From the NCBI GenBank assembly GCA_964510945.1, contig CAZEED010000004.1, positions 1,250 through 65,249 on the forward strand: DNA of 64,000 bases, given 5' to 3'. Below are positions 2,842 to 63,160 of this stretch, one piece after another. The DNA is from an uncultured Candidatus Saccharibacteria bacterium (GTDB lineage Bacteria > Patescibacteriota > Saccharimonadia > Saccharimonadales > JAGQNJ01). The notes beneath the pieces were generated by a model. It had not been told where the DNA came from. It was given only the letters and a program-made list of their open reading frames with translations, and searched no databases. The stretch's first letter is position 1. Every line of letters begins with the position of its first letter. Made by a program: the position numbers and the translations under genes.

Positions 2842-3453
2842 TCATTTAACAAACAAGTGCCTGTTCTCGATCATTAATTCATAAAGTCGCTCGTAGTACG
2901 GGCTAATAATTTTCGATGATGTTGCTTTATCTTTTTTTTGTTCATGAAGCTGTTCTAATGTTATTTTTTCAGTCTTCCATGTATATCCATCGTTTAGCAG
3001 ATTAAGCATTACTGGCAATATTTTGTCCAGCGAATAGACAAACTTAGCCTCGTCTGAATTCATTTTTTCGTATTCTTGAATATGATCATGCATATCAAAA
3101 AAATCTGGCCATTCTGCCTGAATCTTTTCAAGTGCTTCATGCTCACGTTTTTTCTTACTCTGTAGATGCTCTTTATCTGCAAAAATATAAGTATCGCCAG
3201 CGTAAACTTCTACTAAATCATGTACGAGCGCAAACCGTATAACCTTGTCTCTATCTATTTCTGGAAAATAATTCGCTAAAAACCATCCCATCATCGCCAA
3301 ACTATAGCTATGTTCTACGTCGTTTTCTTGTTTTTGTTTGTCATTCTTTTTTACATGAATAACTCTATCTATCGCTTGGAATTTCAACAAAAAACTCTGG
3401 AACTCAATTAGACGTTCTATGTTTGGCTTCGTTCTTTTGTCCTTCATCGTCAC
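2842..3453 (-). CDS. HD-domain phosphohydrolase (YfbR-like 5'-nucleotidase type)
   Basis: EHSYSLAMM...ALVHDLVEVYAGDT gives the H..HD..D signature. A paralogue lies at 52936..53586. Confidence 0.7.
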   Translation of the reverse strand: MTMKDKRTKPNIERLIEFQSFLLKFQAIDRVIHVKKNDKQKQENDVEHSYSLAMMGWFLANYFPEIDRDKVIRFALVHDLVEVYAGDTYIFADKEHLQSKKKREHEALEKIQAEWPDFFDMHDHIQEYEKMNSDEAKFVYSLDKILPVMLNLLNDGYTWKTEKITLEQLHEQKKDKATSSKIISPYYERLYELMIENRHLFVK

Positions 3454-49754: not shown

Positions 49755-49831
49755 TGGTGTCGGTGGTTGGAATTGAACCAACGACCTCAGGCTTATGAGT
49801 CCTGCGCTCTAACCAACTGAGCTACACCGAC
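49755..49831 (-). tRNA. tRNA with CAT anticodon (elongator Met or lysidine-dependent Ile2; not distinguishable by eye), CCA encoded
   Basis: Hand-folded: acceptor GTCGGTG/CACCGAC, D arm GCTC/GAGC, anticodon arm CAGGA-CTCATAA-GCCTG (31:39 A.G), T arm GTTGG-TTCAATT-CCAAC. Confidence 0.88.
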
Positions 49832-50387: not shown

Positions 50388-50561
50388 TTAGTCCTCTATA
50401 TATTGGCCAACCTTATAACCAACCCAGATTCCGATAATTGTACCAACAAAGCCGCAAAGCAGACTCCAACCCGACAACATATTATTATTACCAAAAATAG
50501 CCGGTACATAAGCACCGGCTAGCCCACCGATTGAAGCAAAAATATATATAAATATTTTCAA
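50388..50561 (-). CDS. Small (57 aa) two-TM Gly-rich membrane protein, TTG start (tentative)
   Basis: Own translation: (M)KIFIYIFASIGGLAGAYVPAIFGNNNMLSGWSLLCGFVGTIIGIWVGYKVGQYIED*. It is preceded by a 25-codon ORF (50574..50651, MGDLTYEVVETDNVAIREVDSILFS*) that has a GGAG RBS. Confidence 0.4.
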   Translation of the reverse strand: MKIFIYIFASIGGLAGAYVPAIFGNNNMLSGWSLLCGFVGTIIGIWVGYKVGQYIED

Positions 50562-50850: not shown

Positions 50851-50925
50851 TGCGGGATGGAGCAGCGGCAGCTCGCGTGGCTCATAACCACGAGGTCGTA
50901 GGTTCGAGTCCTACTCCCGCAACCA
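50851..50925 (+). tRNA. tRNA-Met CAT, probably initiator (fMet), CCA encoded
   Basis: Hand-folded: acceptor TGCGGGA/TCCCGCA, D arm GAGC/GCTC with A11:U24, anticodon arm CGTGG-CTCATAA-CCACG, T arm GTAGG-TTCGAGT-CCTAC. It is close overall to E. coli tRNA-fMet (..GGAGCAGC..GCTCG..GGCTCATAACC..AGGTCG..CCCGCAACCA). Confidence 0.88.
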
Positions 50926-51118
50926 AGAAAAGAGACTTGTCATTTTGACAGGTCTTTTTTCTTGGTCGGAAGTTGGGCTCGAAGCTACGACCGAGTAGAG
51001 GTCCTAGGTGAAAACAGCCCGATGGCTGTTTGCAAGAGAATGTTCACCTGACAGCTGTGCTGTCTTGGCAGAACTTCTGGGCCCGCAGAATGTGGGCGAG
51101 TCCTGGTCCCGCAACCAA
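50919..51118 (+). repeat. 200-bp direct repeat, copy 1 (tRNA end core + trailer unit B1)
   Basis: Compared base by base with 52696..52895 and found identical. Confidence 0.9.
50933..50960 (+). terminator. Terminator after the initiator-like tRNA (second identical copy at 52710..52737)
   Basis: AGACTTGTC-ATTTT-GACAGGTCT followed by TTTTT. Confidence 0.7.
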
Positions 51119-51307
51119 AATATGAACCTCATCGTAAGCTGGGGTTTTTATTTTGGTTATGGGGCTTAGGGCCGAACTGGACATCCTGAGGTCCCAGGGG
51201 AGAACTGCCATGGTGGCAGTTCGGAAGAGAACAAACTCTTGAAAACTGGTTTTCAAAGATGTTTTTCTGGGGTCGCGGAACGTGACCGAGTCCTGGTCCC
51301 GCAACCA
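51118..51307 (+). other. Non-coding unit B2 ending in the same tRNA-end mimic
   Basis: Ends ...TTCTGGGGTCGCGGAACGTGACCGAGTCCTGGTCCCGCAACCA, homologous to the end of B1. It contains the hairpin GAACTGCCA-TGG-TGGCAGTTC. Confidence 0.6.
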
Positions 51308-51956
51308 ATCATAAGCAAATTTGTTACCTCTGCAAAAAGAGGTTTTTTACTTTACTTCTATATGTTTAACAATTGTGTCCACAACAGTTTCTACAGGCTG
51401 AGAGCTATCTATAAGGATTGCTCCAGTCGTGCGTTCATATTCTTTAGAGCGTTCATTCCAGTCAATTAGACCCTGTAATTCAGCAGAGCCGTCAACCCAT
51501 CGCTCTGGCTCACGAGCTTGCAAACGCACTATCAAAGTAGGTGTATCTACGAAGAGGCCGAAACGTTTATCAAATAAGTGGTGAAAATCTTTCTGGTTAT
51601 GTGCTCCTCCGACGATAAATACAGGTTCCTCACCTGCTTCACGTGCCAACTCCTCAAACCTAAGGACATCCCATAGCCATGCATGAGTATCTACCCACTC
51701 TTTCGGAAATGGTTGTGATGGTGCTTCTACCTTCTTGCCAGTCTCCTTGTTCACCCACGCACTTAAACCAGGCTCAAAGTCAGTCTCTACAACCTTGAGA
51801 CCTCGTTTTTGTAATTCCCTACCGGCATGGCTCTTGCCGGAACCAGAGGGACCAGAAATGTGATATAAAGGCACGCTTTATATTATACCTATAATTGTTT
51901 CCATCTGGTCAATCCAGCAAGCAATCCGTTCCAATTCGAGTGAACCTTGGCAACCA
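51308..51956. mobile_element. Cassette-like unit A (R2 arm ... P-loop gene ... L2 arm)
   Basis: Starts ATCATAAGCAAATTTGTTACCTCTGCAAAAAGAGGTTTTTT and ends ...CCAATTCGAGTGAACCTTGGCAACCA. Confidence 0.4.
51347..51874 (-). CDS. P-loop NTPase, nucleoside/nucleotide kinase-like
   Basis: ISGPSGSGKSHAGREL Walker A; about 175 aa. Confidence 0.7.
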   Translation of the reverse strand: MPLYHISGPSGSGKSHAGRELQKRGLKVVETDFEPGLSAWVNKETGKKVEAPSQPFPKEWVDTHAWLWDVLRFEELAREAGEEPVFIVGGAHNQKDFHHLFDKRFGLFVDTPTLIVRLQAREPERWVDGSAELQGLIDWNERSKEYERTTGAILIDSSQPVETVVDTIVKHIEVK

Positions 51957-52702
51957 ATCATAAGCAAAGATTTGTCCTCTGTAAAAGAAGGTTGATTTAG
52001 TTAATTTTGCTATGATTAGAAAATGCAGATAAAAACTGTGCTGTTCGACATAGGGGGCGTACTTACACCGGATCCTTATGAATCAATCCTTCTACACGAA
52101 GAACATGGACTGGGACACGATTTAAATCTAACGAAAGAAGAGCTATCCAAGAAACTCAGCGTCGTATGGGAAAAATATGCCACAACTGACAACACAAGCG
52201 AAACTGAGTTCTGGGATGAGGTAAATCAAACCATTGGGACCAAGTTAAGAGAAGAAGATATTGTGGCAGTACGACGCAAGGTCATTATCCCTAATTCAGA
52301 AACTAATACAGTATTCAGCTTTCTCACAGATAAAGGTATTCGACTGGGTATTATCTCAAATAACACTTCTTTCTTTTATGAGCTACAAGCAAGCATGCTG
52401 CCTATTAAAAAGTATATTGATGCTAATCTTATCTTTCTCTCTCAAGAAGAACATTGCAGGAAATCAGATGGGTTGTTTGAAGTTGCCGCAGAAGCCCTTG
52501 ACCCAAAAAGTACTTTTGTAATCGACGACCGAGTCAGTAACGTTGAATACGCAAAAAAGCTTGGTTTTGACGGCGAGGTCTATTCAATGGAAGACGGCGA
52601 TTCCCTGCTCTCACTAGTCCAACGCATACTTGTTAGATAACTCCTCCCACCTAGCCAACTCCTCCAACAACTCGTTCCAATTCGAATGTACTAGGGCAAC
52701 CA
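51957..52702. mobile_element. Cassette-like unit B (R2 arm ... HAD gene ... L2 arm)
   Basis: Starts ATCATAAGCAAAGATTTGTCCTCTGTAAAAGAAGG and ends ...CCAATTCGAATGTACTAGGGCAACCA. Confidence 0.4.
52023..52640 (+). CDS. HAD-superfamily hydrolase
   Basis: Motif I VLFDIGGVL; ISNN (motif II region); ...VIDDR (motif IV). Confidence 0.8.
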   Translation: MQIKTVLFDIGGVLTPDPYESILLHEEHGLGHDLNLTKEELSKKLSVVWEKYATTDNTSETEFWDEVNQTIGTKLREEDIVAVRRKVIIPNSETNTVFSFLTDKGIRLGIISNNTSFFYELQASMLPIKKYIDANLIFLSQEEHCRKSDGLFEVAAEALDPKSTFVIDDRVSNVEYAKKLGFDGEVYSMEDGDSLLSLVQRILVR

Positions 52703-52895
52703 AGAAAAGAGACTTGTCATTTTGACAGGTCTTTTTTCTTGGTCGGAAGTTGGGCTCGAAGCTACGACCGAGTAGAGGTCCTAGGTGAAAACAGCCCGAT
52801 GGCTGTTTGCAAGAGAATGTTCACCTGACAGCTGTGCTGTCTTGGCAGAACTTCTGGGCCCGCAGAATGTGGGCGAGTCCTGGTCCCGCAACCAA
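52696..52895 (+). repeat. 200-bp direct repeat, copy 2 (unit B1')
   Basis: Identical to 50919..51118. Confidence 0.9.
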
Positions 52896-53692
52896 TCATA
52901 AGCAAATATTTTGCCTCTGTAAAAGGAGGTCTTTTTTAGTAACCTCCTACACCCTCTTCTGGTTGGTCGTAATATTGTGCCTTAAAATGCTCAATCATCG
53001 TCTCAAATATCTCTCTGATGTGAGGGGAGCTCCTCTCGATTACATCTTTGTACTTGTCGCAAAAAGACTGATAATTTATATTTAAAATGCGGTATGGTCG
53101 CCATTCATCCATTTCGCCCATAATTAATGCCTGCACTTTATCAACGGTCCATACAAACACAGCCTCGTCATCTTCCTTATCTTCATAACTCTGCATTGCT
53201 ACCACGAGACCACCGAAGTCTGCAAACTCGCCAGATAGCACTTCGAGTGCTACCGCTTCATCTTCAACTTTTTGTTGGCGTTCTGCATCGCTGGCAAATG
53301 CATTCACATCACCTGCTCGAGCTTCAATAAGGTCATGAGCAAGTGCATACTTCAGTACTTTAGCTTCATCAAGTTCTAAATTATACTTTTCAAGAATAAA
53401 CCAGCTCATCAGCGTAACCGCCAAGGTATGCTCACAGTCGTTTTCTCGGCGTTCAGTACCTGCTAGAAAATGGTTTCGGCCTACAAGCGAGAAGTCAATA
53501 ACAAGTTGCTGGACAAAATATAGCGTGGGGTCAGGTGCCTCACCCATTGCGGGCTGAGTCTTCCTTTCATGCTCAGGGTCTATCATAGTATCTAAATACT
53601 AGACTATGGTGTAGAAACCGCAAGCTTGAGCATCTTCCACCTAACCAGCTCCTCTAGCACAATGCTCCAATTCGAATACACTAGGGCAACCA
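52895..53692. mobile_element. Cassette-like unit C (R2 arm ... HD gene ... L2 arm)
   Basis: Starts ATCATAAGCAAATATTTTGCCTCTGTAAAAGGAGGTCTTTTTT and ends ...CCAATTCGAATACACTAGGGCAACCA. Confidence 0.4.
52936..53586 (-). CDS. HD-domain phosphohydrolase (paralogue of 2842..3453)
   Basis: ENDCEHTLAVTLMSWF...LKYALAHDLIEARAGD. Confidence 0.75.
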   Translation of the reverse strand: MIDPEHERKTQPAMGEAPDPTLYFVQQLVIDFSLVGRNHFLAGTERRENDCEHTLAVTLMSWFILEKYNLELDEAKVLKYALAHDLIEARAGDVNAFASDAERQQKVEDEAVALEVLSGEFADFGGLVVAMQSYEDKEDDEAVFVWTVDKVQALIMGEMDEWRPYRILNINYQSFCDKYKDVIERSSPHIREIFETMIEHFKAQYYDQPEEGVGGY

Positions 53693-53735
53693 AATAAGAG
53701 CTGGCAGTGATAGATTGTTCCTAAGGTTTATATTA

Positions 53736-54065
53736 TTAAGGATTAAAAAATTCTTGGCCAGCTATACCCAAGACTACGTTGCCAGCTACTCTAATCTCAT
53801 TAGTTATCGTGGTAGACATAGTTGCTAACCGATCAGGATACCCCTCCGGATCTTTTTGAAATCGTTCCGCAATATCAGGATCGACCACTAAAACAGCATG
53901 GCCATAATGACCTTCATCACCCCTAACACCTCTTGACATTGGACCAAAGAATTTTCCAGTAGCTCGCTCGCCAAGATGCGTTTTTACGATTTGATCTAGT
54001 AACAACCTATCTTCGGAAGTTGGTTTTGGCTGGCGCTTTAGCTTCTCTGGTCCAACATCTGACAT
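53736..54065 (-). CDS. Hypothetical protein
   Basis: ORF only. Confidence 0.4.
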   Translation of the reverse strand: MSDVGPEKLKRQPKPTSEDRLLLDQIVKTHLGERATGKFFGPMSRGVRGDEGHYGHAVLVVDPDIAERFQKDPEGYPDRLATMSTTITNEIRVAGNVVLGIAGQEFFNP

Positions 54066-54165
54066 AACTTCATTCTAACAGACGTGGATATGATAAAAAA
54101 TTACCGCAAATAAACTCACTTGGTAACTATATAAGTTTAACGAGCATAGCTATATACTTTTACTA

Positions 54166-55341
54166 ATGCCTTATCACGGAAAATCCCTGCCACATCTAAA
54201 ACCAACTCACGAAATAGTGGTAACGAGAATGCTATTCACGCTTGGGTTAGCTGCAACAACTGTTGGCGTACCGCTTTATCTAATACAGCTAGGCATGAAA
54301 GACTCCTCGATCGGAATATTTATAGGTATCATATCGCTACTAATCGCGATAATTTCTCTGCTACTGCCACCCGTCTTTGAAAAGTTTAATCAGCTCAGAT
54401 TAAATATCCTCAGCTCCATATTTACTGGTTTGTCATTTATTTTATTCAGTTATTCAAATAGTCCTGTTACGGCTTTATTATTTATCTTTGCTTCTAACCT
54501 GAGCATCACCATTAACTTATATTCATTGAGTATTTTATTTAAAGATTCTACTAGGACCAAGCAAGAATTCACACGCGACACCGGTATGATGGGCTCACTA
54601 ATTAATCTGAGTTGGTTTATCGGCCCTCTGCTGGGTGGACTAATGCTGAATTATGCTGGCATTAATGGGCTTTTTATTCTTGCGGGAGCATTATGTATTC
54701 TCAGCGGAATATTTGTTGTAATTTTGCCTTTTAAAACTATAGTTAAACAGCGCGCTGTAATTGATGGCAATCTAGTTGAAAACCTAAAGTTTTATTTGAG
54801 TAAACCAATGCTTAGAATCGCTTACTTTCAACGAATGGGAATTACTCTGTGGTGGGGATTTATTTGGACTTTTATCCCGATTTTTATGGTCAGGAATAAT
54901 TATAGTGCGGCGAGTATCGGCTTGTTTATCGGCATATCGCAACTTCCGCTATTCTTATTTGAATTTAAAACTGTGGATATTTTGTCGAGAGTAAGCTACA
55001 GAACTGTTTTTTTATTAAGTTATCTCTTTCTTAGCCTTGTTTGTCTTATCGCATTCTTCAGCCCGATATTTAGTATTTCACTATTTGTATTATTTTTGGG
55101 TTCGTTTGCACTCAGTTTTCTTGAGCCTATCATAGACCTTTTCTTTTTTGATCAAGTATCAAAATTAGAAGAAGAAAAGACCTATCCAATATATGGTACA
55201 TCTAGCCTAATCGGTAGTACGGCTGCAAAAATTGGCGTTGGAGCAGGATTAGTAATATTCGCCGATCAAGCAGCTTTTATAATTATCGCGATTTTGATGT
55301 TATTAATCGCCGTCAATGCCACAAAAATCAGGTTTAACTAA
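54166..55341 (+). CDS. MFS transporter
   Basis: About 12 TM segments in a 6+6 layout with a central loop. Confidence 0.8.
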   Translation: MPYHGKSLPHLKPTHEIVVTRMLFTLGLAATTVGVPLYLIQLGMKDSSIGIFIGIISLLIAIISLLLPPVFEKFNQLRLNILSSIFTGLSFILFSYSNSPVTALLFIFASNLSITINLYSLSILFKDSTRTKQEFTRDTGMMGSLINLSWFIGPLLGGLMLNYAGINGLFILAGALCILSGIFVVILPFKTIVKQRAVIDGNLVENLKFYLSKPMLRIAYFQRMGITLWWGFIWTFIPIFMVRNNYSAASIGLFIGISQLPLFLFEFKTVDILSRVSYRTVFLLSYLFLSLVCLIAFFSPIFSISLFVLFLGSFALSFLEPIIDLFFFDQVSKLEEEKTYPIYGTSSLIGSTAAKIGVGAGLVIFADQAAFIIIAILMLLIAVNATKIRFN

Positions 55342-55413
55342 CGAGATTACCATTAAAAATTATTGACGAAAAGGCGTATAATAGAGGTATAAATTAATCG
55401 AGGAGGTTCTATC

Positions 55414-55815
55414 ATGGCCAAAAATAACAGTGATGTAAGCGGTTGGATGGGTTGGATTGGCTTTGCCAGTCTAATGATGATGCTGGCGGGAGTATTCCAT
55501 ATTATTGCAGGGTTTGTAGCGTTATTTCAGGAAGACGTGTACATTGCAGCGCCGAGCAGTCTTTGGGTGTTCGATTACAGTCAATGGGGCTGGATTCACA
55601 TTCTAGGAGGCTTTTTAGCACTAATGGCTGCTGGTTCGCTAATGCAAGGCAAGTTATTTGGCCGAACACTAGTAATTCTAGTCGCAATGGCTAGCGCGAT
55701 TGCTAACATGGCTTTCGTACCAGTCTATCCTGTATGGTCGCTACTAATCATAACAATTGACGTACTTGTCATATGGGCCGTCGCAGTTCACGGTGGCGAG
55801 CTAAAAGAGCTTTAA
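55414..55815 (+). CDS. Four-TM membrane protein (Trp/Gly-rich; actinobacterial DUF-type)
   Basis: WMGWIGFASLMMMLAGVFHIIAGFVALF...WGWIHILGG; AGGAGG RBS. Confidence 0.6.
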   Translation: MAKNNSDVSGWMGWIGFASLMMMLAGVFHIIAGFVALFQEDVYIAAPSSLWVFDYSQWGWIHILGGFLALMAAGSLMQGKLFGRTLVILVAMASAIANMAFVPVYPVWSLLIITIDVLVIWAVAVHGGELKEL

Positions 55816-55838
55816 AAAATAGTCCAACCACTATCTCT

Positions 55839-55870
55839 AAAATACCCCTCTTATAAAAGAGGGGTATTTT
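55839..55870 (+). terminator. Strong hairpin terminator
   Basis: AAAATACCCCTCTT-ATAA-AAGAGGGGTATTTT, a 14-bp stem with A/T runs on both sides, so it could act in both directions. Confidence 0.7.
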
Positions 55871-55988
55871 AATTAGTACTAAGGACGTTGCAGACTTATA
55901 AAAAGCTAAAATTAATCATGGTGGCAATTACATGAGCCAGAGTTAGGGGTCGCACTTTATACAACACACCAACAAAACATTCACATAA

Positions 55989-56018
55989 AATGAGTCCTGG
56001 TTTTATCCAAGACTCATT
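55989..56018 (-). terminator. Hairpin downstream of 56041..57210
   Basis: AATGAGTC / GACTCATT 8-bp stem, followed on the minus strand by TTTATGTG. Confidence 0.45.
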
Positions 56019-56040
56019 CTTTATAAGCAATCTATTGTAC

Positions 56041-57210
56041 TCAGGGAGTATTGTTAGGGACTTTTTCTATGAACCTGCTGTTGGCAATGTTCCAGTGAGT
56101 TTTTAGATAGTTGTCGTTGCCAATATTATCACCTAATGCGTTAAAGTAATCATCATTAGCACAATCTAACATTACTGCACGTAGATTTGTCTCAGAAGTT
56201 TCACAAACATCTTGTTCGTCGTGATCGACTGGACCATAGTAACCTAGTAGATCATCGTACTGCGTGACGTTATATACAAATTTTAGCCGTTCAGCACCCT
56301 GACCCAAGAATGAACCATCAATCTTTAATGCATGAGGCGCACTCTTTTGTGGTCCGCCAAGTGCGTGCACCAATTGGAAGGCAGCATTCTGTACGTACAT
56401 ATCACCCTTCTTTGCTGCTTCTTCGGCATCACCAGCCCAACACTGACGATTAATAATCTGCATGCTACTTAGACGGTTGTTTTTGTTCTCTTGCCCCGGG
56501 CGATCGTCCTGGAATGGCATAAAGTCATAGCCGCACATGTCCATATTGTTATTCTTAACTTTAGAGAAAACCATGTATTTTCTACTGTTTTGATCTAGCC
56601 CCGCTCGCCTAAGAATTTTGTAAGCTTTCTCGGGATTCTTATTTCGCGGACCGCCCTTTATGGCAGTATTAAATTTATCAAAATCTTTTTGTTTGAGCAG
56701 TAATCGGCGTACTTTAATTTGGCATTTGTCATTTCGTGGCCATCGTACCATATATCTTAAGTTTTGAGTTTTGGCAGACTCGATAAACACAGAATCAACT
56801 CCAGCTGCAATTTGCGCGATACGACTTTTCGCCCCCTGATTTATTGCATCAATTTCTGGGTCATTTTTATTATCTACCCAAAGTAGCTCAACTCTAGCAC
56901 CCCTGGAACCAAGATCGCCTGAACAAGCAGTATTAACTGCTGTATTTTGTGCTTCTTGTCTAACGCGCGCTGAGATTTGTGCCTTGAAGGCTCTACGTAA
57001 TGGTCCAGAAGCTAAACGATTAGGTAACGGTGAGGCGACTGCAACTACAGGCTCTGATGCCGCACTACTGCTTTTGCTACCATCCGAAGAATTTTTATAT
57101 ACATAATAGCCAATCCCCGACACAGCTAGCACCACTAAGGCGATGAGGAAAAATTCAACATGGCTAAAACCTTCGCTATTTATTTTAGTGAGTTTCTTGA
57201 ATAACTTCAT
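56041..57210 (-). CDS. Large secreted protein with prepilin-like leader and a degenerate zincin-like motif
   Basis: N-terminus ...KINSEG|FSHVEFFLIALVVLAVSGIGYYVY; FQLVHALGGPQKSAPHA; ...LDCANDDYFNALG...YLKTHWNIANSRF. Confidence 0.5.
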   Translation of the reverse strand: MKLFKKLTKINSEGFSHVEFFLIALVVLAVSGIGYYVYKNSSDGSKSSSAASEPVVAVASPLPNRLASGPLRRAFKAQISARVRQEAQNTAVNTACSGDLGSRGARVELLWVDNKNDPEIDAINQGAKSRIAQIAAGVDSVFIESAKTQNLRYMVRWPRNDKCQIKVRRLLLKQKDFDKFNTAIKGGPRNKNPEKAYKILRRAGLDQNSRKYMVFSKVKNNNMDMCGYDFMPFQDDRPGQENKNNRLSSMQIINRQCWAGDAEEAAKKGDMYVQNAAFQLVHALGGPQKSAPHALKIDGSFLGQGAERLKFVYNVTQYDDLLGYYGPVDHDEQDVCETSETNLRAVMLDCANDDYFNALGDNIGNDNYLKTHWNIANSRFIEKVPNNTP

Positions 57211-57331
57211 CTGATGATTCCTTTTTATTTTATTGTTTTTACAATGAAACTAATATTCATATCTATTCATACTCTAAAATAAGCATATGCGCAACCACTA
57301 GCTGTGGATAAATGCTAATGAATACTAGAGT

Positions 57332-60133
57332 TTACTGATCATGGTCTAGTTTTACCTCGATTGTTGGACTCGGTTCTGGAGGGTGGGCTACAGCAATGGG
57401 TTTAATGTCGTTAATTGGCTGCTGGACATATGCGGCTGGTTGAGGTTGAGGCAAAACAGGATTTGCTTTAGGCTGAACAAAAACAGGATTGGGCACCGGT
57501 GTAGCACTCGCTGGCGGAGCGTAAACTTGCTGGTTAGTAATTGTTGGCGCAACAGGAGGAAGTGGCGGTGGAGGCGCCGGTTCATTCAGAGGAGCGTTAG
57601 TATCATTGACGACATTAGGGTTAATATTTTCCACGTTTAGTTGGGGGGGCTGAAAACCTACCGACTGGTCTACGTCAGGAGCTGCCATACCACCCGACTG
57701 AGCTAACCCAGAATAATCTGCTACCGTTTGGCTATTACTTTGTACAGAGTTGGATTGCACTGGACTACTCGGCCCTGCACCGACTGGTGTAGCCTGCTTT
57801 AATCTCCTGCCTTTTCTATGATGAAGTATCATGATAATAATTGTCACGATAATTAAAACCAGTATTATCAATATAAAAATACTAATCGCTAAAGTTACTG
57901 GGCTAGATGCGCTGAAAAGTTCCTCGCTAATTATGACTTTTATCGGATTAGAATCACTCTTGTCCTCGCCGCTGGCAATTTTAGCATCAGCAACAGAGAT
58001 AAAACTTTTTGCTAAATAGTTGGCTGGGTATTTTTCTAAAGTCGCGTTGAACAGCTCTTTAGATTTAGAGTAGTGCCCACTACTAAACTCTGTAATAGCC
58101 TTATCCCAAATACCATCAACGTCACTCTCTGAATCGAGAGTTACTTTATTTTTGGATACCAATGCAGTAAAATCTGCCACATCACGTATGACGCCTGTTC
58201 CGGCAAATTTCGATACACCGGCTTCTGGATCTCCCTTACCCGATGCATAAGTAGTAATACCGATGACCTTAGCATTTACATCAAAAACAGGACCACCACT
58301 ATTACCTTGAGCAGTCGGTATAGTGGTTACTGCAAGCAAACGTGTAGATTTGGGTGATTCTTTAACAATTTCCTGCACAACACCTTGAGTTGCTGAAGGT
58401 ATAGTCCTTGTTTCCTTCGTCTCTAAACCACCGTCAACAAATCCAGGAAAGCCAATAGATGTGGCGACATCACCAACTTTTGCAGAAGTTATTGTGCCGA
58501 TAGAAGCTACCGGAAATGAAGTTCCCTCCATTTTTAAAAGCGCTACATCTGATGTTTTTGACTTCGAGATATCCGTTTCGCCATTTTCGGGTGTATATTG
58601 ATCAAAATCAAAATCCGTTAATTTGGCGCTTACCACTTTATCGCTATACACAAAGTCTGAGGCTGTCTTTAAATCTTTCAGCTTAATTGGTTCGTCAGAT
58701 AATTGAATAGCTAATTTAGTATTCTCTTTAGTCACCTTTAAGTTGGTTTTTGGGATCTGATATGCTAAATCCAAAATCGTATAGATTGCTTCTTGATCGC
58801 CTGCTTGCACACCTTTAATTAACGTATTTAGACCGGTAGCAGATATGACTTTAGAATCAACTAAATACTGCAAGTATTGCTGAAATGGCTTAACATTCTT
58901 TGCTTGGACATTAATAGCCAAGTATTGTTGCAAGGCTGGCACAAAACCGTGTTTTACCACATGTCCATTGGTACTAATATATCCATCTTCGGACACAATC
59001 GTACCGGACCCCACCGCGGCAGAACAAGCATTCTTAACGCTAAGTCCAACTTTGCCGCCGACAAGCAAATTAAAGTCCTTACAATCTATAGCTCCAACAC
59101 GAACTACCGCCGGCTGATTTTTGGCCACAACTTCTAGAGCGGTTGTACCCGATAATTTGTCTGGCACATTCACGCTGTCATCAACCGGATCTTCGCCTCT
59201 CGGAACATTTATTGCGCCAAAATCCGAGAATAATTGACGACTAAATAGACTGTCAAAGATCGAAGTTTTTGCCCCAAGAACCCCAGACTCAGCGTCGGGT
59301 TTGCTATATTTAGTCTGGGCAATCACTTGTTCGAATAATGCCAAAGTCTGGGATGAAGTGAACTCGTAATACGTTAACTTTATAACATAAGGACGTCCAT
59401 TTTGGACCGTCACATAATTTACTTGCCCTCCATCAGGCGATCCAACTGGTTCACTCTTGTCATAACTATACTTTTTTGAAGCTTTGTAAACAATTTTTGT
59501 ATATTCTGTATCGCCAATTTTTACTTGCTTTGATGACGACTGAGTATAGCTAATTTTGTCGCTCGATTTTGGGGCAAAAAACTTCGTTGCGAGTTCAATA
59601 TCGGATAGTTTCTGGCCAAATTCTTTCTTTCGTCGGGCAAAAAAGTCCTTAACAGTACTAGAGCTAACATACATATTCGTACTTCGTACATCAAAATCAT
59701 CTGCGAAAACGTTCGAAGTCTGAGTTTCTGCTTCTTTAAAATTTAAAAATAATGGGCTATATTTATCTTTTTTATTCCAAAGATCCTCACCAGTAACAAA
59801 ATCTAATTTTTTGTTTTCAGCGATTATCCAGCCCTGACCTTCAAATATCTCCTTGTTATATGTAGTAGAAAATCCAAGTGTCGAGTTAACCGTAACATCT
59901 TTAGAGCTTTGTGGCTGTACGTTAAGAACTTCCTGCAAAGCCTGGTTGGTTTCTTGGTTAGATTGCTTTTCGCCAGATTGGGATAGGTACAAACCAATAG
60001 TTAGCATTACAACTAGCGCTAAAAGACTAACAAATATTATCCTAAGAGTTCTTGTTTTTTTAGCATGACTGGCATGATCAATAGAAATATTGTCATGACT
60101 AGCAGATGTAGATTTACTCCGTTTAAAACCCAT
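57332..60133 (-). CDS. Membrane-anchored trypsin-like (S1) serine protease with Pro-rich C-terminal tail
   Basis: N-terminal TM; His in STNGHVV; Asp in SDVALLK; Ser in AQGNSGGPVF; second TM (ISIFILIILVLIIVTIIIMIL), then a P/Q/V-rich tail. Confidence 0.8.
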   Translation of the reverse strand: MGFKRSKSTSASHDNISIDHASHAKKTRTLRIIFVSLLALVVMLTIGLYLSQSGEKQSNQETNQALQEVLNVQPQSSKDVTVNSTLGFSTTYNKEIFEGQGWIIAENKKLDFVTGEDLWNKKDKYSPLFLNFKEAETQTSNVFADDFDVRSTNMYVSSSTVKDFFARRKKEFGQKLSDIELATKFFAPKSSDKISYTQSSSKQVKIGDTEYTKIVYKASKKYSYDKSEPVGSPDGGQVNYVTVQNGRPYVIKLTYYEFTSSQTLALFEQVIAQTKYSKPDAESGVLGAKTSIFDSLFSRQLFSDFGAINVPRGEDPVDDSVNVPDKLSGTTALEVVAKNQPAVVRVGAIDCKDFNLLVGGKVGLSVKNACSAAVGSGTIVSEDGYISTNGHVVKHGFVPALQQYLAINVQAKNVKPFQQYLQYLVDSKVISATGLNTLIKGVQAGDQEAIYTILDLAYQIPKTNLKVTKENTKLAIQLSDEPIKLKDLKTASDFVYSDKVVSAKLTDFDFDQYTPENGETDISKSKTSDVALLKMEGTSFPVASIGTITSAKVGDVATSIGFPGFVDGGLETKETRTIPSATQGVVQEIVKESPKSTRLLAVTTIPTAQGNSGGPVFDVNAKVIGITTYASGKGDPEAGVSKFAGTGVIRDVADFTALVSKNKVTLDSESDVDGIWDKAITEFSSGHYSKSKELFNATLEKYPANYLAKSFISVADAKIASGEDKSDSNPIKVIISEELFSASSPVTLAISIFILIILVLIIVTIIIMILHHRKGRRLKQATPVGAGPSSPVQSNSVQSNSQTVADYSGLAQSGGMAAPDVDQSVGFQPPQLNVENINPNVVNDTNAPLNEPAPPPPLPPVAPTITNQQVYAPPASATPVPNPVFVQPKANPVLPQPQPAAYVQQPINDIKPIAVAHPPEPSPTIEVKLDHDQ

Positions 60134-60201
60134 AGCTTAGTCTAAATTGTAGCATAAGCATGTTATGATTAGTTAATATATTATAGAGAAAGGACCCCTT
60201 C

Positions 60202-61200
60202 ATGCAGCCTAACGATCCTAATCAAGTAAATGACCCAAACCAACCGCAAGCACAGATGCCTCAAATGCCTGCGGAGCCTATTCCTCCGGCACCAAATCCT
60301 GTTGCACAACCCACTCCAGATTTAAATGTCCAGAATAACCTAGCGCCTCAGCCAACTATGCAACAAGAAACTCAATTGCCTCCACCTCCTCCGCCTCCAG
60401 CCCCACAGTCAGAGTTGCAACCATTGCCTCCAACGCAAACAAATCCGCTACCAACTCAGCCATTAGCTACGCCAATGGCACAACCAAATGACCCACTACC
60501 TCCTCCGCCTCCAGCCCCACAGTCAGTTACCCCAGATATACCCAAGCGCAATTTTCCTTTAAAAAAATTTCTACTAATTTTTGGTATTTTTACTATTGTC
60601 GCTGTAGTAGCAATTTTATCCATAGTTATAATTGGCAAACTTGGATCAAAAACGCCCAAATATTCCAAGACAAAAACTGTAGAATTGGTTGGTTTCTCTA
60701 CGGACGAAAATTCTGGGATGTCTTTTGAAGTTCCCGAAGAAATGGAAGAAACTCTAAAAACCGATTTGTCCGCAGACTATGTACATAAAGCACAGATCGA
60801 CAAAAACACTAAAGGCGAACTCGGGAATGTTAACGCCGCCATAGAGACTGTGTCCTATACCGCGGATGTTACGGACGCACAAAAAAAAGAGATCGCTGAT
60901 AAGTTTAACAGTGATTCATTCGACACTAACATAGAGGGAAGCATTGGCTCAGGGCCAAAGAATGTAAAGGTAGTGAACAAGACTGTATCTGACGATAACT
61001 CTACCCTGCGGGCTGAAGTCACCTTAGATATCCCGGGTGTCGATGATAACAAAGAGTATGTACCAGCCAGAGGCGTCATTACATATAAGATAATTGGCAA
61101 ACGAATGTATTTGTTTGTGTATGCGTTCACTGATGAAGTATTTAAAGCTAACGAAGGTTTTATAAAAAAGATGGAGGAAGGCGTAAAGTACGGGGTTTAG
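60202..61200 (+). CDS. Bitopic protein: Pro/Gln-rich N-terminus, TM, C-terminal globular domain
   Basis: Composition and one TM (LLIFGIFTIVAVVAILSIVII). An internal 28-nt repeat lies at 60385..60412 and 60499..60526. Confidence 0.5.
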   Translation: MQPNDPNQVNDPNQPQAQMPQMPAEPIPPAPNPVAQPTPDLNVQNNLAPQPTMQQETQLPPPPPPPAPQSELQPLPPTQTNPLPTQPLATPMAQPNDPLPPPPPAPQSVTPDIPKRNFPLKKFLLIFGIFTIVAVVAILSIVIIGKLGSKTPKYSKTKTVELVGFSTDENSGMSFEVPEEMEETLKTDLSADYVHKAQIDKNTKGELGNVNAAIETVSYTADVTDAQKKEIADKFNSDSFDTNIEGSIGSGPKNVKVVNKTVSDDNSTLRAEVTLDIPGVDDNKEYVPARGVITYKIIGKRMYLFVYAFTDEVFKANEGFIKKMEEGVKYGV

Positions 61201-61224
61201 GTCTAAACTAGCCAAAGTCTTTGG

Positions 61225-63003
61225 CTACCAGCCACCACCACCGCCTCCGCCACCGCCTCCGCCAGAGAATCCACCACCACCAGAAAATCCGCTAGAGCCC
61301 GAGCTACTTGGTGGAGCAAACTGAGTAGTGCTAGCCGTGTTGAAACTACCTAACGAGTCTGCTAAATAAATTGCATTGAAAGTTCTCCAGTTACCTTGAT
61401 ACCAATCGGGTGGCTTATCATATATGTCTTTGAACTCATTTGCCCAGCTTTTTTCTATCCCAAATAGCATGGCGTATGGTAGTAGTTTTTCAAACAATTT
61501 AATCTTGGCATTTTTACCACTACCAATGCGTTCAGCACCTTTTATGCTTTGAAGATACTTTATTCTGTCTGCTTCAGCCATTTTCATATAATCCTTCAAA
61601 CCATATAGATAATCTCGCATTTCTACACCAGACACTGTTCTGGCAGGCATTTTACTACCACCTATAAAAACAATCATCGATGATATCAACAGACCAATTC
61701 CTAGAGGTGTACCAATACCTGTAAACAACAGGATAAAGCCAACTACAAGCAATATTATCCCAATAGTGGTAAATGATTTCTTGGCAAGAGCCGGATCCGT
61801 GGCAAAGTATCCTTTATCTGCTGCTGTTTTAGTTTGCATTTTTGCTAACACCTGTACATCAGTAAAGATATTCTTTGCGAGGTCGCTCAACTTAGTTTTT
61901 GAGCCAACTGGGTATCCAGCTCCAAAAAACATTTCAACTACTTTTTTCTGCTCAGCCGTTAAATCATCTGGCGCTTTAATCAATTCTAACTCGTACTCGA
62001 TCTTGTCTTTAAGAACCTTTTTCTTAACAGTTTCTCTAATAACTATATAGCCATGCACTGCCAGCTCTACTACTGTGGCACTGACGGCGGTTGTATTCAT
62101 ATGCTCATTGATAATTACATCCGCTAGAGACACGTGCATTTCTTTAGGCACAGAATATTGTGGGATAATAACTCCCCTACCTTTTGGATCTCTACCCCGT
62201 TTTCGCCATTTAATGATCACCACCACTAAGGTTATTAAAATTGGTAAAAATGCCGAGAGAACAATCGTCAAGAAAATTATTGTTTTTAGTAATGCTACCA
62301 TTTTATCTGGCTCGAACGTCCCGTTAGCGAAGCCCATAACAAATGTCAGTGTTTCATACGGATTGAGATTTTTTGCAATTACAGTCACAACTTGACCGTT
62401 CTTATCATTGACTGTTTTGATATCGCAACTGCTCTCTTTTACACCATATCGGCCAGAAAAACATTTTTTTAGATCTGGCTTAATCTCTCCTACTTCATTA
62501 GGTACATGGATTCTTGCGATAACCTTACCCACCGGCTGAGCCCACTGATCACCATTTACGTCCCAGTAAAACTCATCATGTGTATCATATAATTTAATAA
62601 AATTCTTAACTTCATAGCTAATAACATAGGTAGTCCGGCCATGAACAAATTGATTGGCGTTACCAATTTTTAAAACAGCGTTACTGTTGTTGCTACTGGT
62701 TGAATAGTTATAGGCATCCCCTTTTTCATCCGTCACCGACAATATTTTTAGTCCAAGGTCATTATCATACTTTTCAGGAATGGCCCGAAGTATCCCGTGA
62801 TTCTGGTTATATTCAGGAAATGTGGCAACTATTTTTTCTACAACTTTCATCGATGCGACTTTTTTATCAGATTTTTGCAGATAATAATCGGTTGTGAAAG
62901 AATTTATCTCAAAGTTATTAACGTTTTGAGCAACAGCCGGCTTTACATGAAAAATGGTTAATAAAAATGTAAAGCCAATTAGTGCTGTATAGATTTTTTT
63001 CAT
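61225..63003 (-). CDS. DUF2207 membrane protein with poly-Gly C-terminus
   Basis: Signal peptide, N-terminal beta domain, TM cluster, and the typical tail ...SSGSSGFSGGGGFSGGGGGGGGGGGW. Confidence 0.75.
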   Translation of the reverse strand: MKKIYTALIGFTFLLTIFHVKPAVAQNVNNFEINSFTTDYYLQKSDKKVASMKVVEKIVATFPEYNQNHGILRAIPEKYDNDLGLKILSVTDEKGDAYNYSTSSNNSNAVLKIGNANQFVHGRTTYVISYEVKNFIKLYDTHDEFYWDVNGDQWAQPVGKVIARIHVPNEVGEIKPDLKKCFSGRYGVKESSCDIKTVNDKNGQVVTVIAKNLNPYETLTFVMGFANGTFEPDKMVALLKTIIFLTIVLSAFLPILITLVVVIIKWRKRGRDPKGRGVIIPQYSVPKEMHVSLADVIINEHMNTTAVSATVVELAVHGYIVIRETVKKKVLKDKIEYELELIKAPDDLTAEQKKVVEMFFGAGYPVGSKTKLSDLAKNIFTDVQVLAKMQTKTAADKGYFATDPALAKKSFTTIGIILLVVGFILLFTGIGTPLGIGLLISSMIVFIGGSKMPARTVSGVEMRDYLYGLKDYMKMAEADRIKYLQSIKGAERIGSGKNAKIKLFEKLLPYAMLFGIEKSWANEFKDIYDKPPDWYQGNWRTFNAIYLADSLGSFNTASTTQFAPPSSSGSSGFSGGGGFSGGGGGGGGGGGW

Positions 63004-63160
63004 TGTTTACTACATTATCTCATAAATGGAAAAAGCCGAGTATTTATATAGTTTGATAAGAATCTTGAGATAATCTTTAGGCTAAGACTTGTGGATAACC
63101 CAGCGACCACGTCCTATAATAATTTCAACATTTGATACCAAAAAGCTTATCATTAAATAA

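What the first reader, a model, noticed from the sequence alone, without database searches (positions are those of the whole stretch)
50851..53692. Array of integrase-less single-gene units bounded by tRNA 3'-end mimics, with attL/attP/attR-like junction logic
After the likely initiator tRNA (50851..50925), the string GCAACCA (acceptor end plus encoded CCA) recurs seven times. The last A of each copy is at 50925, 51117, 51307, 51956, 52702, 52894 and 53692.

Left arms are of two kinds. L1 is GAGTCCTNNTCCC, a copy of the tRNA T-loop/T-stem/acceptor, and occurs at 50925, 51117, 51307 and 52894. L2 is a roughly 62-nt arm ending CCAATTCGARTNNANNNNGG, found at 51895..51956, 52641..52702 and 53631..53692. 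I counted 47/62 identities between the last two L2 copies.

Right arms are R1 (AGAAAAGAGACTTGTC..., the tRNA trailer with its terminator; after 50925 and 52702), R2 (ATCATAAGCAAA plus a small hairpin and T-run, about 45 nt; after 51307, 51956 and 52894) and two unique sequences.

The junctions therefore read L1-R2 (attL-like), L2-R2 (attP-like, between two tandem units) and L2-R1 (attR-like). This is the pattern expected from serial site-specific insertion of small R2...L2 units into a tRNA-end attB.

Each R2...L2 unit (649, 746 and 798 bp) carries exactly one gene, in either orientation: a P-loop kinase-like gene, a HAD phosphatase and an HD phosphohydrolase (paralogue of 2842..3453). All three are plausible nucleotide-salvage functions. 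No recombinase is encoded in the window, so mobilisation would have to be in trans. The layout is conceptually close to integron cassettes or tRNA-targeting island builders, but with a tRNA-derived recombination site.
Basis: partly seen in the sequence, partly recalled or inferred. Interest (0 to 1): 0.85.

Follow-up and report, generated by a model that had tools for sequence, protein, structure and literature searches.

The report
Gene-cassette array at initiator tRNA
Just after the initiator tRNA gene of a Candidatus Saccharibacteria genome sits a stack of small one-gene cassettes, each bounded by the two halves of the attachment site of a serine-recombinase mobile element, which shows one way these tiny-genome bacteria gain, lose and swap genes.

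Summary

The L2 arm occurs in 51 metagenome loci. It forms co-oriented arrays of up to 8 cassettes with unrelated cargo, anchored at the initiator tRNA-Met gene.

Sibling strains with near-identical flanks carry different cassette sets. The core covaries with the host tRNA end (GCAACCA or GCTACCA).

In 7 of 7 related loci where it can be judged, a ~527-aa large serine recombinase (LSR) gene abuts the tRNA, and an L2 arm was found distal to it wherever the locus extended far enough. The reverse complement of L2 encodes the LSR C-terminus (VAQVHSNWN..ELSRW..), so attP lies inside the LSR gene. An 8,432-bp circular form with intact L2-core-LSR was assembled in three separate runs.

The window's cassettes therefore look like LSR-less derivatives that keep both attP halves, stacked by serial integration and reshuffled by recombination. 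No LSR gene is in the window. Trans or hitchhiking mobilisation is inferred, not shown. I found no published description. The closest analogues are SCC/pseudo-SCC composite islands and tycheposons.

The parts
50851..50925 (+). Initiator-type tRNA-Met(CAT). It is the anchor of the array (attB left half). Its last 7 nt, GCAACCA, are the shared core.
   Evidence: ARAGORN. Rfam tRNA, 65.9 bits. The same 75-nt tRNA heads the arrays in more than 20 related loci.
50926..51117 (+). Unit A, a non-coding 'u-unit'. It has an R1 terminator hairpin (50922-50966). Next comes a diverged inverted copy of the tRNA's last ~32 nt (about 50963-50992). A structured ~100 nt follows. It ends in L1, a 20-nt copy of a tRNA-fMet 3' end (51098-51117).
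   Evidence: (I4). The inverted tRNA copy scores 33, against a shuffle maximum of 23. RNAalifold on 5 u-units predicts 40 pairs, 21 with compensatory changes. L1 equals the 3' end of ordinary tRNA-fMet genes.
51118..51307 (+). Unit B, a second diverged u-unit (terminator, structured body, L1).
   Evidence: Alignment with A, including compensatory hairpin changes. Terminator-like site at 51124-51147. Its R arm recurs in L131.
51308..51956 (+). Cassette C. R2 arm 51308-51346 (terminator-like). AAA_18 P-loop kinase-like gene 51347-51874 (minus strand). L2 arm about 51866-51956, ending in the core.
   Evidence: The antisense of L2 reads LVAKVHSNWNGLLAGLTRWKQL. The same cassette, with a modified right arm, is in sibling L060.
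51957..52702 (+). Cassette D. R2 arm, HAD hydrolase gene 52023-52640 (+), and L2 arm 52632-52702.
   Evidence: The antisense of L2 reads LVALVHSNWNELLEELARWEELS, which is 64% identical to the C-terminus of LSR P0092, E = 1e-9.
52703..52894 (+). Unit E, an exact second copy of unit A. The duplicated block runs from core to core.
   Evidence: the repeat finder D1, 207 nt at 99%. Sibling strains L129 and L130 lack the 1,777 bp between the A and E registers.
52895..53692 (+). Cassette F. R2 arm 52895-52935, HD_3 phosphohydrolase gene 52936-53586 (minus strand), and L2 arm 53575-53692.
   Evidence: The same cargo, at about 95-97% identity, carries different core-proximal arm sequences in L063.
53693..53735 (+). 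Array end. AGCTGGCAGTGATAGATTG is a remnant of the 5' region of a NUDIX cassette that is intact in L063.
   Evidence: Pairwise alignment of the window with L063.

Best explanation
This is the variable gene-cassette array that Candidatus Saccharibacteria keep at the 3' end of their initiator tRNA gene.

Shown:
- The array is built from elements of a large serine recombinase (LSR) family.
- The attP of these elements lies inside the 3' end of the LSR gene itself.
- The element exists as a circle in which the order is L2 arm, GC[A/T]ACCA core, then the rest of the LSR gene. On the opposite strand the LSR ORF reads through the core and ends in L2.
- In integrated copies the LSR gene abuts the tRNA. 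Its last ~36 codons are replaced by 16 codons read from the tRNA. The displaced 36-codon fragment (L2) lies at the far end of the element.

Inferred:
- The right-hand side of attP resembles the native tRNA trailer, so integration regenerates a usable target at the tRNA.
- New elements then stack in front of old ones, which produces the L2-core-R (attP-like) junctions.
- Old elements lose the LSR gene and most other genes, leaving 0.5-2 kb cassettes. Each cassette has a terminator-type R arm, its own promoter, one or a few genes, and an L2 arm.
- The window holds three such LSR-less cassettes (kinase-like, HAD, HD) plus three non-coding ~190-nt u-units. Each u-unit ends in a tRNA 3'-end copy (L1) and so offers extra attB-like left arms.
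- Cassettes move either with an LSR element that excises using a more distal L2 (hitchhiking), or through an LSR supplied in trans.
- Local gain and loss also occurs by homologous recombination between the repeated arms. The 1,777-bp A/E indel is an example.
For: Array and arms.
- The cores and arms are non-random.
- The L2 arm is found in 51 metagenome loci. nhmmer finds 1-8 copies per locus, all on one strand.
- There are 55 non-redundant L2-ended units with a median size of about 0.9 kb. Of these, 34 carry one gene. Cargo is diverse.
- Arrays start at the 75-nt tRNA-Met in more than 20 loci.
- Junction census: tRNA-R1u 4, tRNA-cassette 21, L2-cassette 28, L2-R1u 6.

Strain variation.
- L063 has an identical left-flank protein but a different array.
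- L060 has NTPase and pilin-like cassettes and no HD cassette.
- L129 and L130 have only tRNA-A-HD.

Core covariation.
- In L131 and L134 both the tRNA and L2 end in GCTACCA. In L133 both end in GCAACCA.
- In L085 the L2 copies aligned end GGGCTACCA, and its u-unit ends GCTACCA.

The recombinase.
- The ORF matches Pfam Resolvase and Recombinase. It has 353 homologues, some named Saccharibacteria or Patescibacteria.
- The gene overlaps the tRNA 3' end in L076, L084, L099, L131/132, L133, L134 and L135.
- An L2 arm lies distal to the LSR in L076, L084, L099, L131, L133 and L134. L135 is too short to show it.

L2 is the LSR 3' end.
- The reverse complement of L2 is open for 30-39 codons in the LSR frame in 45 of 53 copies, mostly with the stop at one shared position. 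The other two frames stop earlier.
- Database LSRs end either in the tRNA-encoded tail ..LVAGAGLEPATSWL or in the L2-encoded tail ..LVAQVHSNWNLILEELSRW..STAAD.
- The window's own L2 arms translate the same way.

Circle and attP.
- L136, L137 and L138 come from three runs. Each has a 30-nt terminal overlap, and they are exact rotations of one 8,432-bp sequence. It carries an intact L2-GCTACCA-LSR junction and internal L2 remnants after its cargo genes.
- Reconstructed attP sites have an inner inverted repeat, ACTTGG-GC[A/T]A-CCAAG.

Precise boundaries.
- The A/E duplicate is bounded exactly by the 7-nt core on both sides, although its left neighbours (the tRNA and an L2 arm) share only that core.
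Against: - No LSR gene, or any other recombinase, was found in the 64-kb window. Any activity on these cassettes would have to come from elsewhere.
- Well-studied phage LSRs recombine only attP with attB and need a directionality factor for excision (my own knowledge). Serial stacking, and use of L2-core-R junctions, requires a more relaxed enzyme, which is untested.
- The window's arms are reduced. L2 is about 60-90 nt rather than 120. R2 carries 4 extra nt (ATCA) between the core and TAAGCA, compared with the commonest arm. These copies may therefore be inactive.
- The HD cassette has different core-proximal arm sequences in two strains. A crossover only at the core does not explain this. 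It points to gene conversion or homologous exchange between arms.
- The 1,777-bp difference from L129/L130 is fully explained by RecA recombination between 192-nt identical repeats.
- The u-units have compensatory base-pair changes that this model does not explain.
Confidence: 0.72

Rival explanations
1. Relics only. The cassettes are decay products of past LSR integrations and are no longer substrates for any recombinase. All present variation comes from RecA-dependent recombination between the repeated arms and from uptake of relatives' DNA by natural transformation.
For: - There is no LSR in the window.
- The window's arms are truncated or altered.
- The A/E indel is flanked by 192-nt perfect repeats.
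- Arm sequences next to the same HD cargo differ between strains in a way that suggests conversion.
- The window encodes RecA, RuvB and type IV pilus genes. Saccharibacteria are naturally competent (Wang et al. 2023, as cited in PMC12857230).
Against: - The copy of unit A after an L2 arm shares only the 7-nt core with its other left context (the tRNA). That is too short for RecA.
- The same u-after-tRNA and u-after-L2 pattern recurs in the unrelated loci L122 and L124.
- 45 of 53 L2 copies keep the LSR reading frame open.
- The circular element contains former cassettes. This shows that cassettes do travel with the LSR.
Confidence: 0.2
2. Local segmental duplication of the tRNA flank, with no mobile-element origin.
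For: Units A and E are identical, and A and B are tandem homologues.
Against: - The arms flank unrelated genes in 51 loci from many samples.
- L2 is a recombinase gene fragment.
- The core covaries with the host tRNA.
- A circular form exists.
Confidence: 0.02
3. Repeat-induced misassembly of the window.
For: - Short-read contigs from several samples break exactly at the arms.
- The joins tRNA-A-B-C are seen only in this assembly.
- With A equal to E, the assembly graph also allows tRNA-A-HD plus a 1,777-bp circle.
Against: - An independent NCBI assembly is colinear over 51287-63586.
- L002 spans 51287-52895 at 100%.
- Related loci show the same architecture.
Confidence: 0.04
4. An integron-like system: a tyrosine IntI recombining folded single-stranded attC sites. 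Or another tyrosine-recombinase or Xer-dependent module system.
For: - Co-oriented arrays of mostly one-gene cassettes, each with a 60-120-nt 3' site.
- L2 plus R together span about 240 bp, and L2 contains repeated YTCTAS motifs.
Against: - No tyrosine recombinase was detected in the window or in any locus (the query was XerD recalled from memory, so sensitivity is limited).
- L2 has no conserved palindromic fold on either strand and no base-pair covariation.
- There is no RYYYAAC/GTTRRRY pair.
- The conservation of L2 is explained by antisense LSR coding.
Confidence: 0.02
5. RNA-level role. The tRNA-like ends act as processing or stability signals (tRNA punctuation) for cassette transcripts.
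For: - Every core is followed by a terminator-like hairpin.
- 28 of 34 single genes point towards L2.
- The u-units have compensatory base-pair changes and G-U pairs on the + strand.
Against: - L2 shows no structural covariation.
- L2 keeps its orientation even when the cargo is reversed.
- No Rfam family matches.
- This could still apply to the u-units, which remain unexplained.
Confidence: 0.05

Closest known systems
Staphylococcal cassette chromosome (SCC) composite islands, including ccr-less pseudo-SCC elements
   Same: - Large serine recombinases insert elements at one site at the 3' end of a conserved gene.
- Elements stack in tandem, separated by direct repeats of the integration sequence.
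- Some members lack the recombinase genes and sit beside recombinase-bearing ones (PMC6243372; bioRxiv 10.1101/336396).
   Different: - The target here is the initiator tRNA gene, not rlmH/orfX.
- Units are 0.5-2 kb one-gene cassettes rather than 10-60 kb islands.
- attP lies inside the recombinase ORF.
- The phylum is different (Saccharibacteria), and the LSR is only distantly related. PDB matches are limited to the catalytic domain.
Tycheposons and the tRNA-anchored genomic islands of Prochlorococcus
   Same: - A streamlined genome.
- Islands next to tRNA genes, including a tRNA-Met.
- Successive integrations push older elements inward.
- Partial tRNA copies and degenerate remnants separate the units, and a minority of elements use large serine recombinases (bioRxiv 10.1101/2020.12.28.424599).
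   Different: - Tycheposons are 5-20 kb, mostly use tyrosine recombinases, and carry replication modules.
- Here the repeated boundary is mainly a recombinase-gene fragment plus a 7-nt core, and the dominant units are one-gene cassettes with conserved ~120-nt arms.
Integron cassette arrays and CALINs
   Same: - Co-oriented arrays of mostly single-gene cassettes.
- Each cassette ends in a 60-140-nt recombination site.
- Arrays without a recombinase gene occur.
- Content is variable between strains.
   Different: - No IntI, no attI-intI platform, and no folded attC signature.
- Cassettes have their own promoter-like and terminator-like sequences.
- The enzyme class is serine.
SSV-type (fusellovirus) integrases, whose gene is split by integration into a tRNA gene
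   Same: attP lies within the recombinase ORF. Integration into a tRNA gene separates a C-terminal gene fragment from the rest, and such fragments mark past integrations. (This rests on my own knowledge of Sulfolobus SSV1-type integrases, not on a test here.)
   Different: - Those are archaeal tyrosine recombinases, and the split inactivates the gene.
- Here it is a bacterial serine recombinase. Only about 36 C-terminal codons are exchanged for 16 tRNA-encoded codons, so the catalytic and DNA-binding domains stay intact.

Membership tests
LSR-type site-specific integrative element | Encodes a large serine recombinase (Resolvase catalytic domain plus Recombinase / zinc-ribbon DNA-binding domains) | tested here: not met
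   No such ORF is in the 64-kb window. It is met in related arrays: Pfam Resolvase 3e-24 and Recombinase, and 7 loci with the gene abutting the tRNA. The window holds only three antisense C-terminal fragments of the gene.
LSR-type site-specific integrative element | attP and attB share a short identical crossover sequence flanked by imperfect inverted half-sites | tested here: inconclusive
   The shared GC[A/T]ACCA core covaries between the tRNA and L2. The inner inverted repeat ACTTGG-GCAA-CCAAG is present, but outer half-site symmetry is weak (10-13 of 29). The crossover dinucleotide has not been mapped.
LSR-type site-specific integrative element | Exists as an excised circle with intact attP, as well as in integrated form with attL and attR | tested here: met
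   For a relative, not for the window. An 8,432-bp circular assembly was recovered from three runs with an L2-GCTACCA-LSR junction.
LSR-type site-specific integrative element | The recombinase catalyses attP x attB recombination | not testable with these tools
   This needs an in vitro or in vivo assay.
Integron | An IntI tyrosine recombinase gene next to attI at the head of the array | tested here: not met
   The head of the array is a tRNA gene. Upstream are a second tRNA-Met, a small membrane protein (DivIC-like in relatives) and TilS. phmmer with XerD found no tyrosine recombinase (the query was recalled from memory).
Integron | attC sites: imperfect palindromes (R''-L''...L'-R', with a GTTRRRY core) that fold as single strands | tested here: not met
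   RNAalifold on 53 L2 arms gave no consensus structure on the + strand and only a marginal 6-pair hairpin (-2.3 kcal/mol) on the complement. A mutual-information scan found no Watson-Crick covariation. The sequence is instead explained by antisense coding.
Tycheposon | tRNA-anchored elements with a site-specific integrase plus a replication module, separated by partial tRNA copies | tested here: inconclusive
   The tRNA anchoring and the partial tRNA copies (L1) are met. No replication module was identified in the cassettes. The family is defined in Prochlorococcus.
SCC / pseudo-SCC composite island | Ccr-type LSR, integration at the rlmH 3' end, tandem elements bounded by integration-site repeats | tested here: not met
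   The target gene and host differ. Only the logic is shared: an LSR, tandem stacking and recombinase-less members.
Bacterial initiator tRNA gene | Cloverleaf with CAT anticodon, and a position-1 / position-72 mismatch | tested here: met
   ARAGORN and Rfam. In relatives the sequence starts CGCGGG and ends CCCGCAACCA, giving the C1-A72 mismatch. The window copy, as ARAGORN called it, starts TGCGGG.

The most novel reading that the evidence does not exclude
Saccharibacteria run an integron-like gene-capture platform with a serine recombinase instead of an integron integrase. The initiator tRNA end acts as the docking site. LSR-less one-gene cassettes are picked up and moved when an LSR element excises using a distal L2. 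In addition, integration swaps the recombinase's own last ~36 residues for a 16-residue tRNA-encoded tail. This would give the enzyme two isoforms and could serve as a built-in switch between integration and excision, without a separate directionality factor.
Probability: 0.3. Interest if true: 0.9.

Novelty: new variant of a known kind. Interest (0 to 1): 0.78.

Why it matters
Saccharibacteria and other CPR bacteria have very small genomes, and how they acquire accessory genes is poorly understood. This locus looks like a dedicated and widespread gene-exchange site. It is found in soil, peat and water metagenomes.

The parts are now defined: the target (initiator tRNA 3' end), the core (GC[A/T]ACCA), the arm sequences, a candidate enzyme family with more than 350 members, and an observed circular intermediate. 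That makes the mechanism directly testable.

It also offers a natural site-specific integration system for organisms that are very hard to manipulate genetically, and a new set of LSR/att pairs for genome engineering. The attP-inside-ORF arrangement, which gives the recombinase a different C-terminus in the free and integrated states, is unusual for serine recombinases. It could be a new way of controlling directionality.

Tried and rejected
1. The genome-contig scan with GCAACCAATCATAAGCAAA gave 51 hits. Nearly all were one conserved cyanobacterial coding gene, with a few chance hits.
2. Viral-contig scans with the L2 pattern, with the L2-core-R junction and with the L2 centre each found nothing. 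The L1 pattern hit only ordinary tRNA-fMet genes in phage contigs.
3. Rfam at E <= 1 over 49-55 kb found only the two tRNAs and noise.
4. RNAalifold and a mutual-information scan on the 120-nt L2 arm found no structure. I had seen apparent GGUAGAG/CCUCUA covariation by eye, but the scan did not support it. The conservation is better explained by antisense coding.
5. I considered and dropped several other systems:
   - Integron attC: no R''/R' motifs and no IntI.
   - Xer/dif modules: no 11-6-11 site.
   - IS200/IS605-type single-strand transposition: the end hairpins are unrelated.
   - REP/MITE.
   - tmRNA, SRP, 6S or Y-RNA identity for the u-units.
6. Distant homologues of the HAD cargo (P0003, P0004) sit in ordinary chromosomal contexts without arms.
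7. The Patescibacteria gene-exchange paper (PMC12455944) does not mention tRNA sites or recombinases.
8. I looked for an LSR in the window species' own assembly. The one lookup I tried (P0061) was from another assembly.

Full report
**What is in the window**

A 75-nt tRNA-Met(CAT) lies at 50851-50925. Its last seven bases, GCAACCA, recur with their final A at 51117, 51307, 51956, 52702, 52894 and 53692.

The arm sequences are far from chance:
- L1 has 4 matches against 0.03 expected.
- The core plus R2 has 3 matches against 0.09 expected.
- L2 has three copies at 70-80% identity.

The array reads: tRNA | A | B | C (AAA_18 kinase-like, minus strand) | D (HAD, plus) | E | F (HD_3, minus) | remnant.

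A and E are identical 192-nt non-coding units. B is a diverged homologue of A. The organism is a Candidatus Saccharibacteria bacterium, judged from the names carried by its FtsH cluster. The rest of the window is ordinary chromosome, including RecA, RuvB, type IV pilus genes and chaperones.

**Assembly support**

An independent NCBI assembly (GCA_041908465.1) is colinear with 51287-63586 at 99.6-99.8%. A Logan contig covers 51287-52895 at 100%. Short-read contigs from many samples break exactly at the arms.

The joins tRNA-A-B-C are seen only in this assembly. Because A equals E, the assembly graph also allows tRNA-A-HD plus a 1,777-bp circle.

**Sibling strains carry different arrays**

- L063 has an identical 213-aa left-flank protein. 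Its array reads tRNA, u-unit, HAD2, u-unit, a small empty piece, HD, NUDIX, a three-gene unit, u-unit.
- L060 has the same right flank. It carries NTPase_1 and pilin-like cassettes ahead of kinase and HAD, and has no HD cassette.
- L129 and L130 have only tRNA-A-HD. They lack exactly the 1,777 bp between the A and E registers.
- The HD cargo is 95-97% identical between the window and L063, but the ~40-50 nt on each side of the cores differ.

**The arms are widespread**

One metagenome scan with the L2 pattern returned 51 loci. In most of them L2 is the core-proximal half of a ~120-nt conserved element that starts just after the stop codon of a plus-strand gene.

nhmmer finds 1-8 copies per locus, always on the same strand. 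There are 55 non-redundant L2-ended units with a median size of about 0.9 kb. Of these, 34 carry one gene, 28 pointing towards L2 and 6 away.

Cargo is varied. It includes SDR, AAA_18 kinases, HAD, HD, a 2H phosphoesterase, an aminotransferase, ATPase/STAS-like proteins and many pilin-like proteins.

Each core is followed by a hairpin plus T-run of one of several families. Arrays begin at the same 75-nt tRNA-Met in more than 20 loci. Usually a divergent second tRNA-Met and a DivIC-like gene lie upstream.

The junction census is 4 tRNA-R1u, 21 tRNA-cassette, 28 L2-cassette, 6 L2-R1u, 6 u-cassette and 1 u-R1u.

**The recombinase**

In L076, L084 and L099 (degraded copy), a ~527-aa ORF lies immediately after the tRNA on the opposite strand. 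L112 has a partial copy at its contig edge, where adjacency to a tRNA cannot be judged. The ORF has Resolvase and Recombinase domains.

The family has 353 homologues at E <= 1e-20. Some carry the names Saccharibacteria or Patescibacteria.

Four more distant members (56-72% identity) were looked up. In every case the ORF's last 44 nt overlap the 3' half of an initiator-type tRNA-Met. In L131, L133 and L134 an L2-like arm lies 3.9-9.7 kb further on. L135 is too short to show a distal arm.

The core covaries. In L131 and L134 both the tRNA and L2 end in GCTACCA. In L133 and in the window both end in GCAACCA. In L085 the L2 copies aligned, and its u-unit, end GCTACCA.

**L2 is the 3' end of the recombinase gene**

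Read on the opposite strand in the LSR frame, L2 encodes VAQVHSNWNxLLxELSRWKxLSRGGxLLxYSTAAD-stop. The frame is open for 30-39 codons in 45 of 53 copies, mostly with the stop at one shared position. The other two frames stop earlier.

LSR proteins in the database end in one of two ways:
- a tRNA-encoded tail, ..YLVAGAGLEPATSWL, or
- this L2-encoded tail, as in P0079, P0092, P0099, P0121, P0122 and others.

The three window L2 arms translate to LVAKVHSNWNGLLAGLTRWKQL, LVALVHSNWNELLEELARWEELS and LVALVYSNWSIVLEELVRWKML. The second is 64% identical to the P0092 C-terminus, with E = 1e-9.

So attP lies inside the LSR ORF. Integration exchanges the C-terminal ~36 codons for 16 tRNA-encoded codons and leaves the fragment at the distal end of the element. 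This explains why L2 is conserved in sequence but shows no RNA-type covariation.

**A circular form exists**

The contigs carrying P0099 come from three runs. Each is 8,462 nt long with a 30-nt terminal overlap. After trimming they are exact rotations of one 8,432-bp sequence.

This circle carries L2-long, GCTACCA and the LSR gene contiguously. It also holds truncated L2-like remnants after cargo genes. That suggests LSR elements absorb neighbouring cassettes.

Reconstructed attP sites share an inner inverted repeat, ACTTGG-GC[A/T]A-CCAAG. This would place the crossover in the position that covaries.

**How it most likely works**

Shown:
- the array architecture;
- its variability between strains;
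- the association of LSR, tRNA and L2;
- attP lying inside the ORF;
- the circular form.

Inferred:
- Serial integration occurs at the tRNA end. This is possible if the element's right half-site (AGAAAGAC.. plus hairpin) is close enough to the native trailer R1 (AGAAAAGAGAC.. plus hairpin) for the occupied site to remain a target.
- The LSR gene is then lost, leaving cassettes.
- Cassettes move by hitchhiking on excision that uses a distal L2, or by an LSR acting in trans.
- Local rearrangement occurs by homologous recombination between arms.

The exact core-to-core boundary of the A/E duplicate argues for core-directed recombination at least once, because its two left contexts share only 7 nt. 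The A/E indel itself needs no more than RecA.

**What remains unexplained**

The ~190-nt u-units begin with a terminator whose stem includes the core. Next comes a diverged inverted copy of the tRNA's last ~32 nt. Then there is a T-stem-like pairing that closes a ~100-nt three-hairpin insertion. They end in a 15-20-nt exact copy of the host tRNA 3' end.

Five copies share 40 predicted pairs, 21 with compensatory changes. The u-units may be portable attB-like sites, expressed RNAs, or both.

Longer R arms in relatives carry GGTTC[G/C]AGTCCTG[C/T]TTGGT about 17 nt upstream of a -10 box. I cannot explain this motif either.

**Comparison with known systems**

Functionally the locus works like SCC/pseudo-SCC composite islands, which have an LSR, one chromosomal site, tandem stacking and recombinase-less members (PMC6243372). 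It also resembles tycheposon islands at tRNA genes (bioRxiv 10.1101/2020.12.28.424599). The cassette scale is that of an integron.

It is not an integron, because there is no IntI and no attC fold. It is not a member of the SCC or tycheposon families, because the target, enzyme lineage and host differ. The attP-within-ORF arrangement recalls SSV-type split integrases (my own knowledge), but here the enzyme is a serine recombinase and it stays intact.

Literature searches found no description of this system.

**Verdict**

This is a new variant of a known kind, namely site-specific integrative elements that build tRNA-anchored islands. Its unusual features are the one-gene cassettes bounded by recombinase-gene fragments and the two-isoform recombinase. 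Interest is 0.78.

Noticed in passing
window 50962-51117, 51154-51307, 52739-52894; also L063, L076, L084, L085, L102, L122, L131: The ~150-nt bodies of the non-coding u-units keep a common secondary structure with compensatory changes (21 of 40 predicted pairs) and G-U pairs on the + strand. They start with an inverted, diverged copy of the tRNA's last ~32 nt. No Rfam family matches. They could be an undescribed small RNA or a DNA-level site.
   Followed up: partly
window 50851-50925, compared with L063 5361-5435: Two strains with an identical 213-aa flank protein carry different initiator tRNA alleles. The T-stem is GTAGG/CCTAC in the window and CCAGG/CCTGG in L063. The region upstream of the tRNA also differs, so the homology with L063 breaks about 30 nt before the gene. 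The L1 copies in the window match the L063 allele, not the window's own tRNA.
   Followed up: partly
window 57296-60137: The 933-aa Trypsin_2-domain gene (57332-60133) is absent from siblings L060 and L128-L130, whose homology jumps from about 57295 to 60138. This is a second strain-variable spot 4 kb from the array.
   Followed up: no
window 49755-49831 and 50388-50561: A second, divergent tRNA-Met(CAT) lies about 1 kb upstream of the anchor tRNA. In most relatives a DivIC-like gene sits between the two tRNAs. In the window that position holds a 57-aa glycine-zipper-like membrane ORF on the other strand.
   Followed up: partly
window 51308-51336, 51957-51985, 52895-52923 (minus strand): Each R2 arm contains a minus-strand promoter-like match (TTTACA or TTTGCA, 17 nt, TATGAT) ending at the base next to the core and pointing leftwards across it. 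The copy at 51985-51957 could drive the minus-strand kinase gene through L2.
   Followed up: no
L077, L080, L083, L100, L101, L107 and L117 (R arms), and L060 88-110: Longer right arms carry a T-arm-like GGTTC[G/C]AGTCCTG[C/T] followed by TTGGT, about 17 nt upstream of a -10-like box of the cassette gene. The L2-long arm also starts with AGGTTCTAGTC. Why tRNA T-arm-like strings recur about 80-115 nt from the core is unexplained.
   Followed up: no
L136-L138 (8,432-bp circle): Besides the LSR, the circular element encodes a 301-aa protein with faint FtsK_SpoIIIE/DUF87 hits and a DUF3761 protein. ARAGORN also calls a 92-nt tRNA-Trp-like sequence on it. This may hint at a transfer function.
   Followed up: no
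L060 3130-3300, compared with window 52480-52702: In sibling L060 the HAD gene has a different C-terminal ~55 codons and no L2 arm. It joins directly to a remnant of the start of the 109-aa gene. This looks like a deletion or replacement that removed the HD cassette and the array end.
   Followed up: partly
L007-L057 (genome-contig hits): The 19-mer GCAACCAATCATAAGCAAA is by coincidence invariant inside a conserved coding gene of filamentous cyanobacteria (Nostoc, Scytonema, Planktothrix). It is unrelated to this locus.
   Followed up: yes
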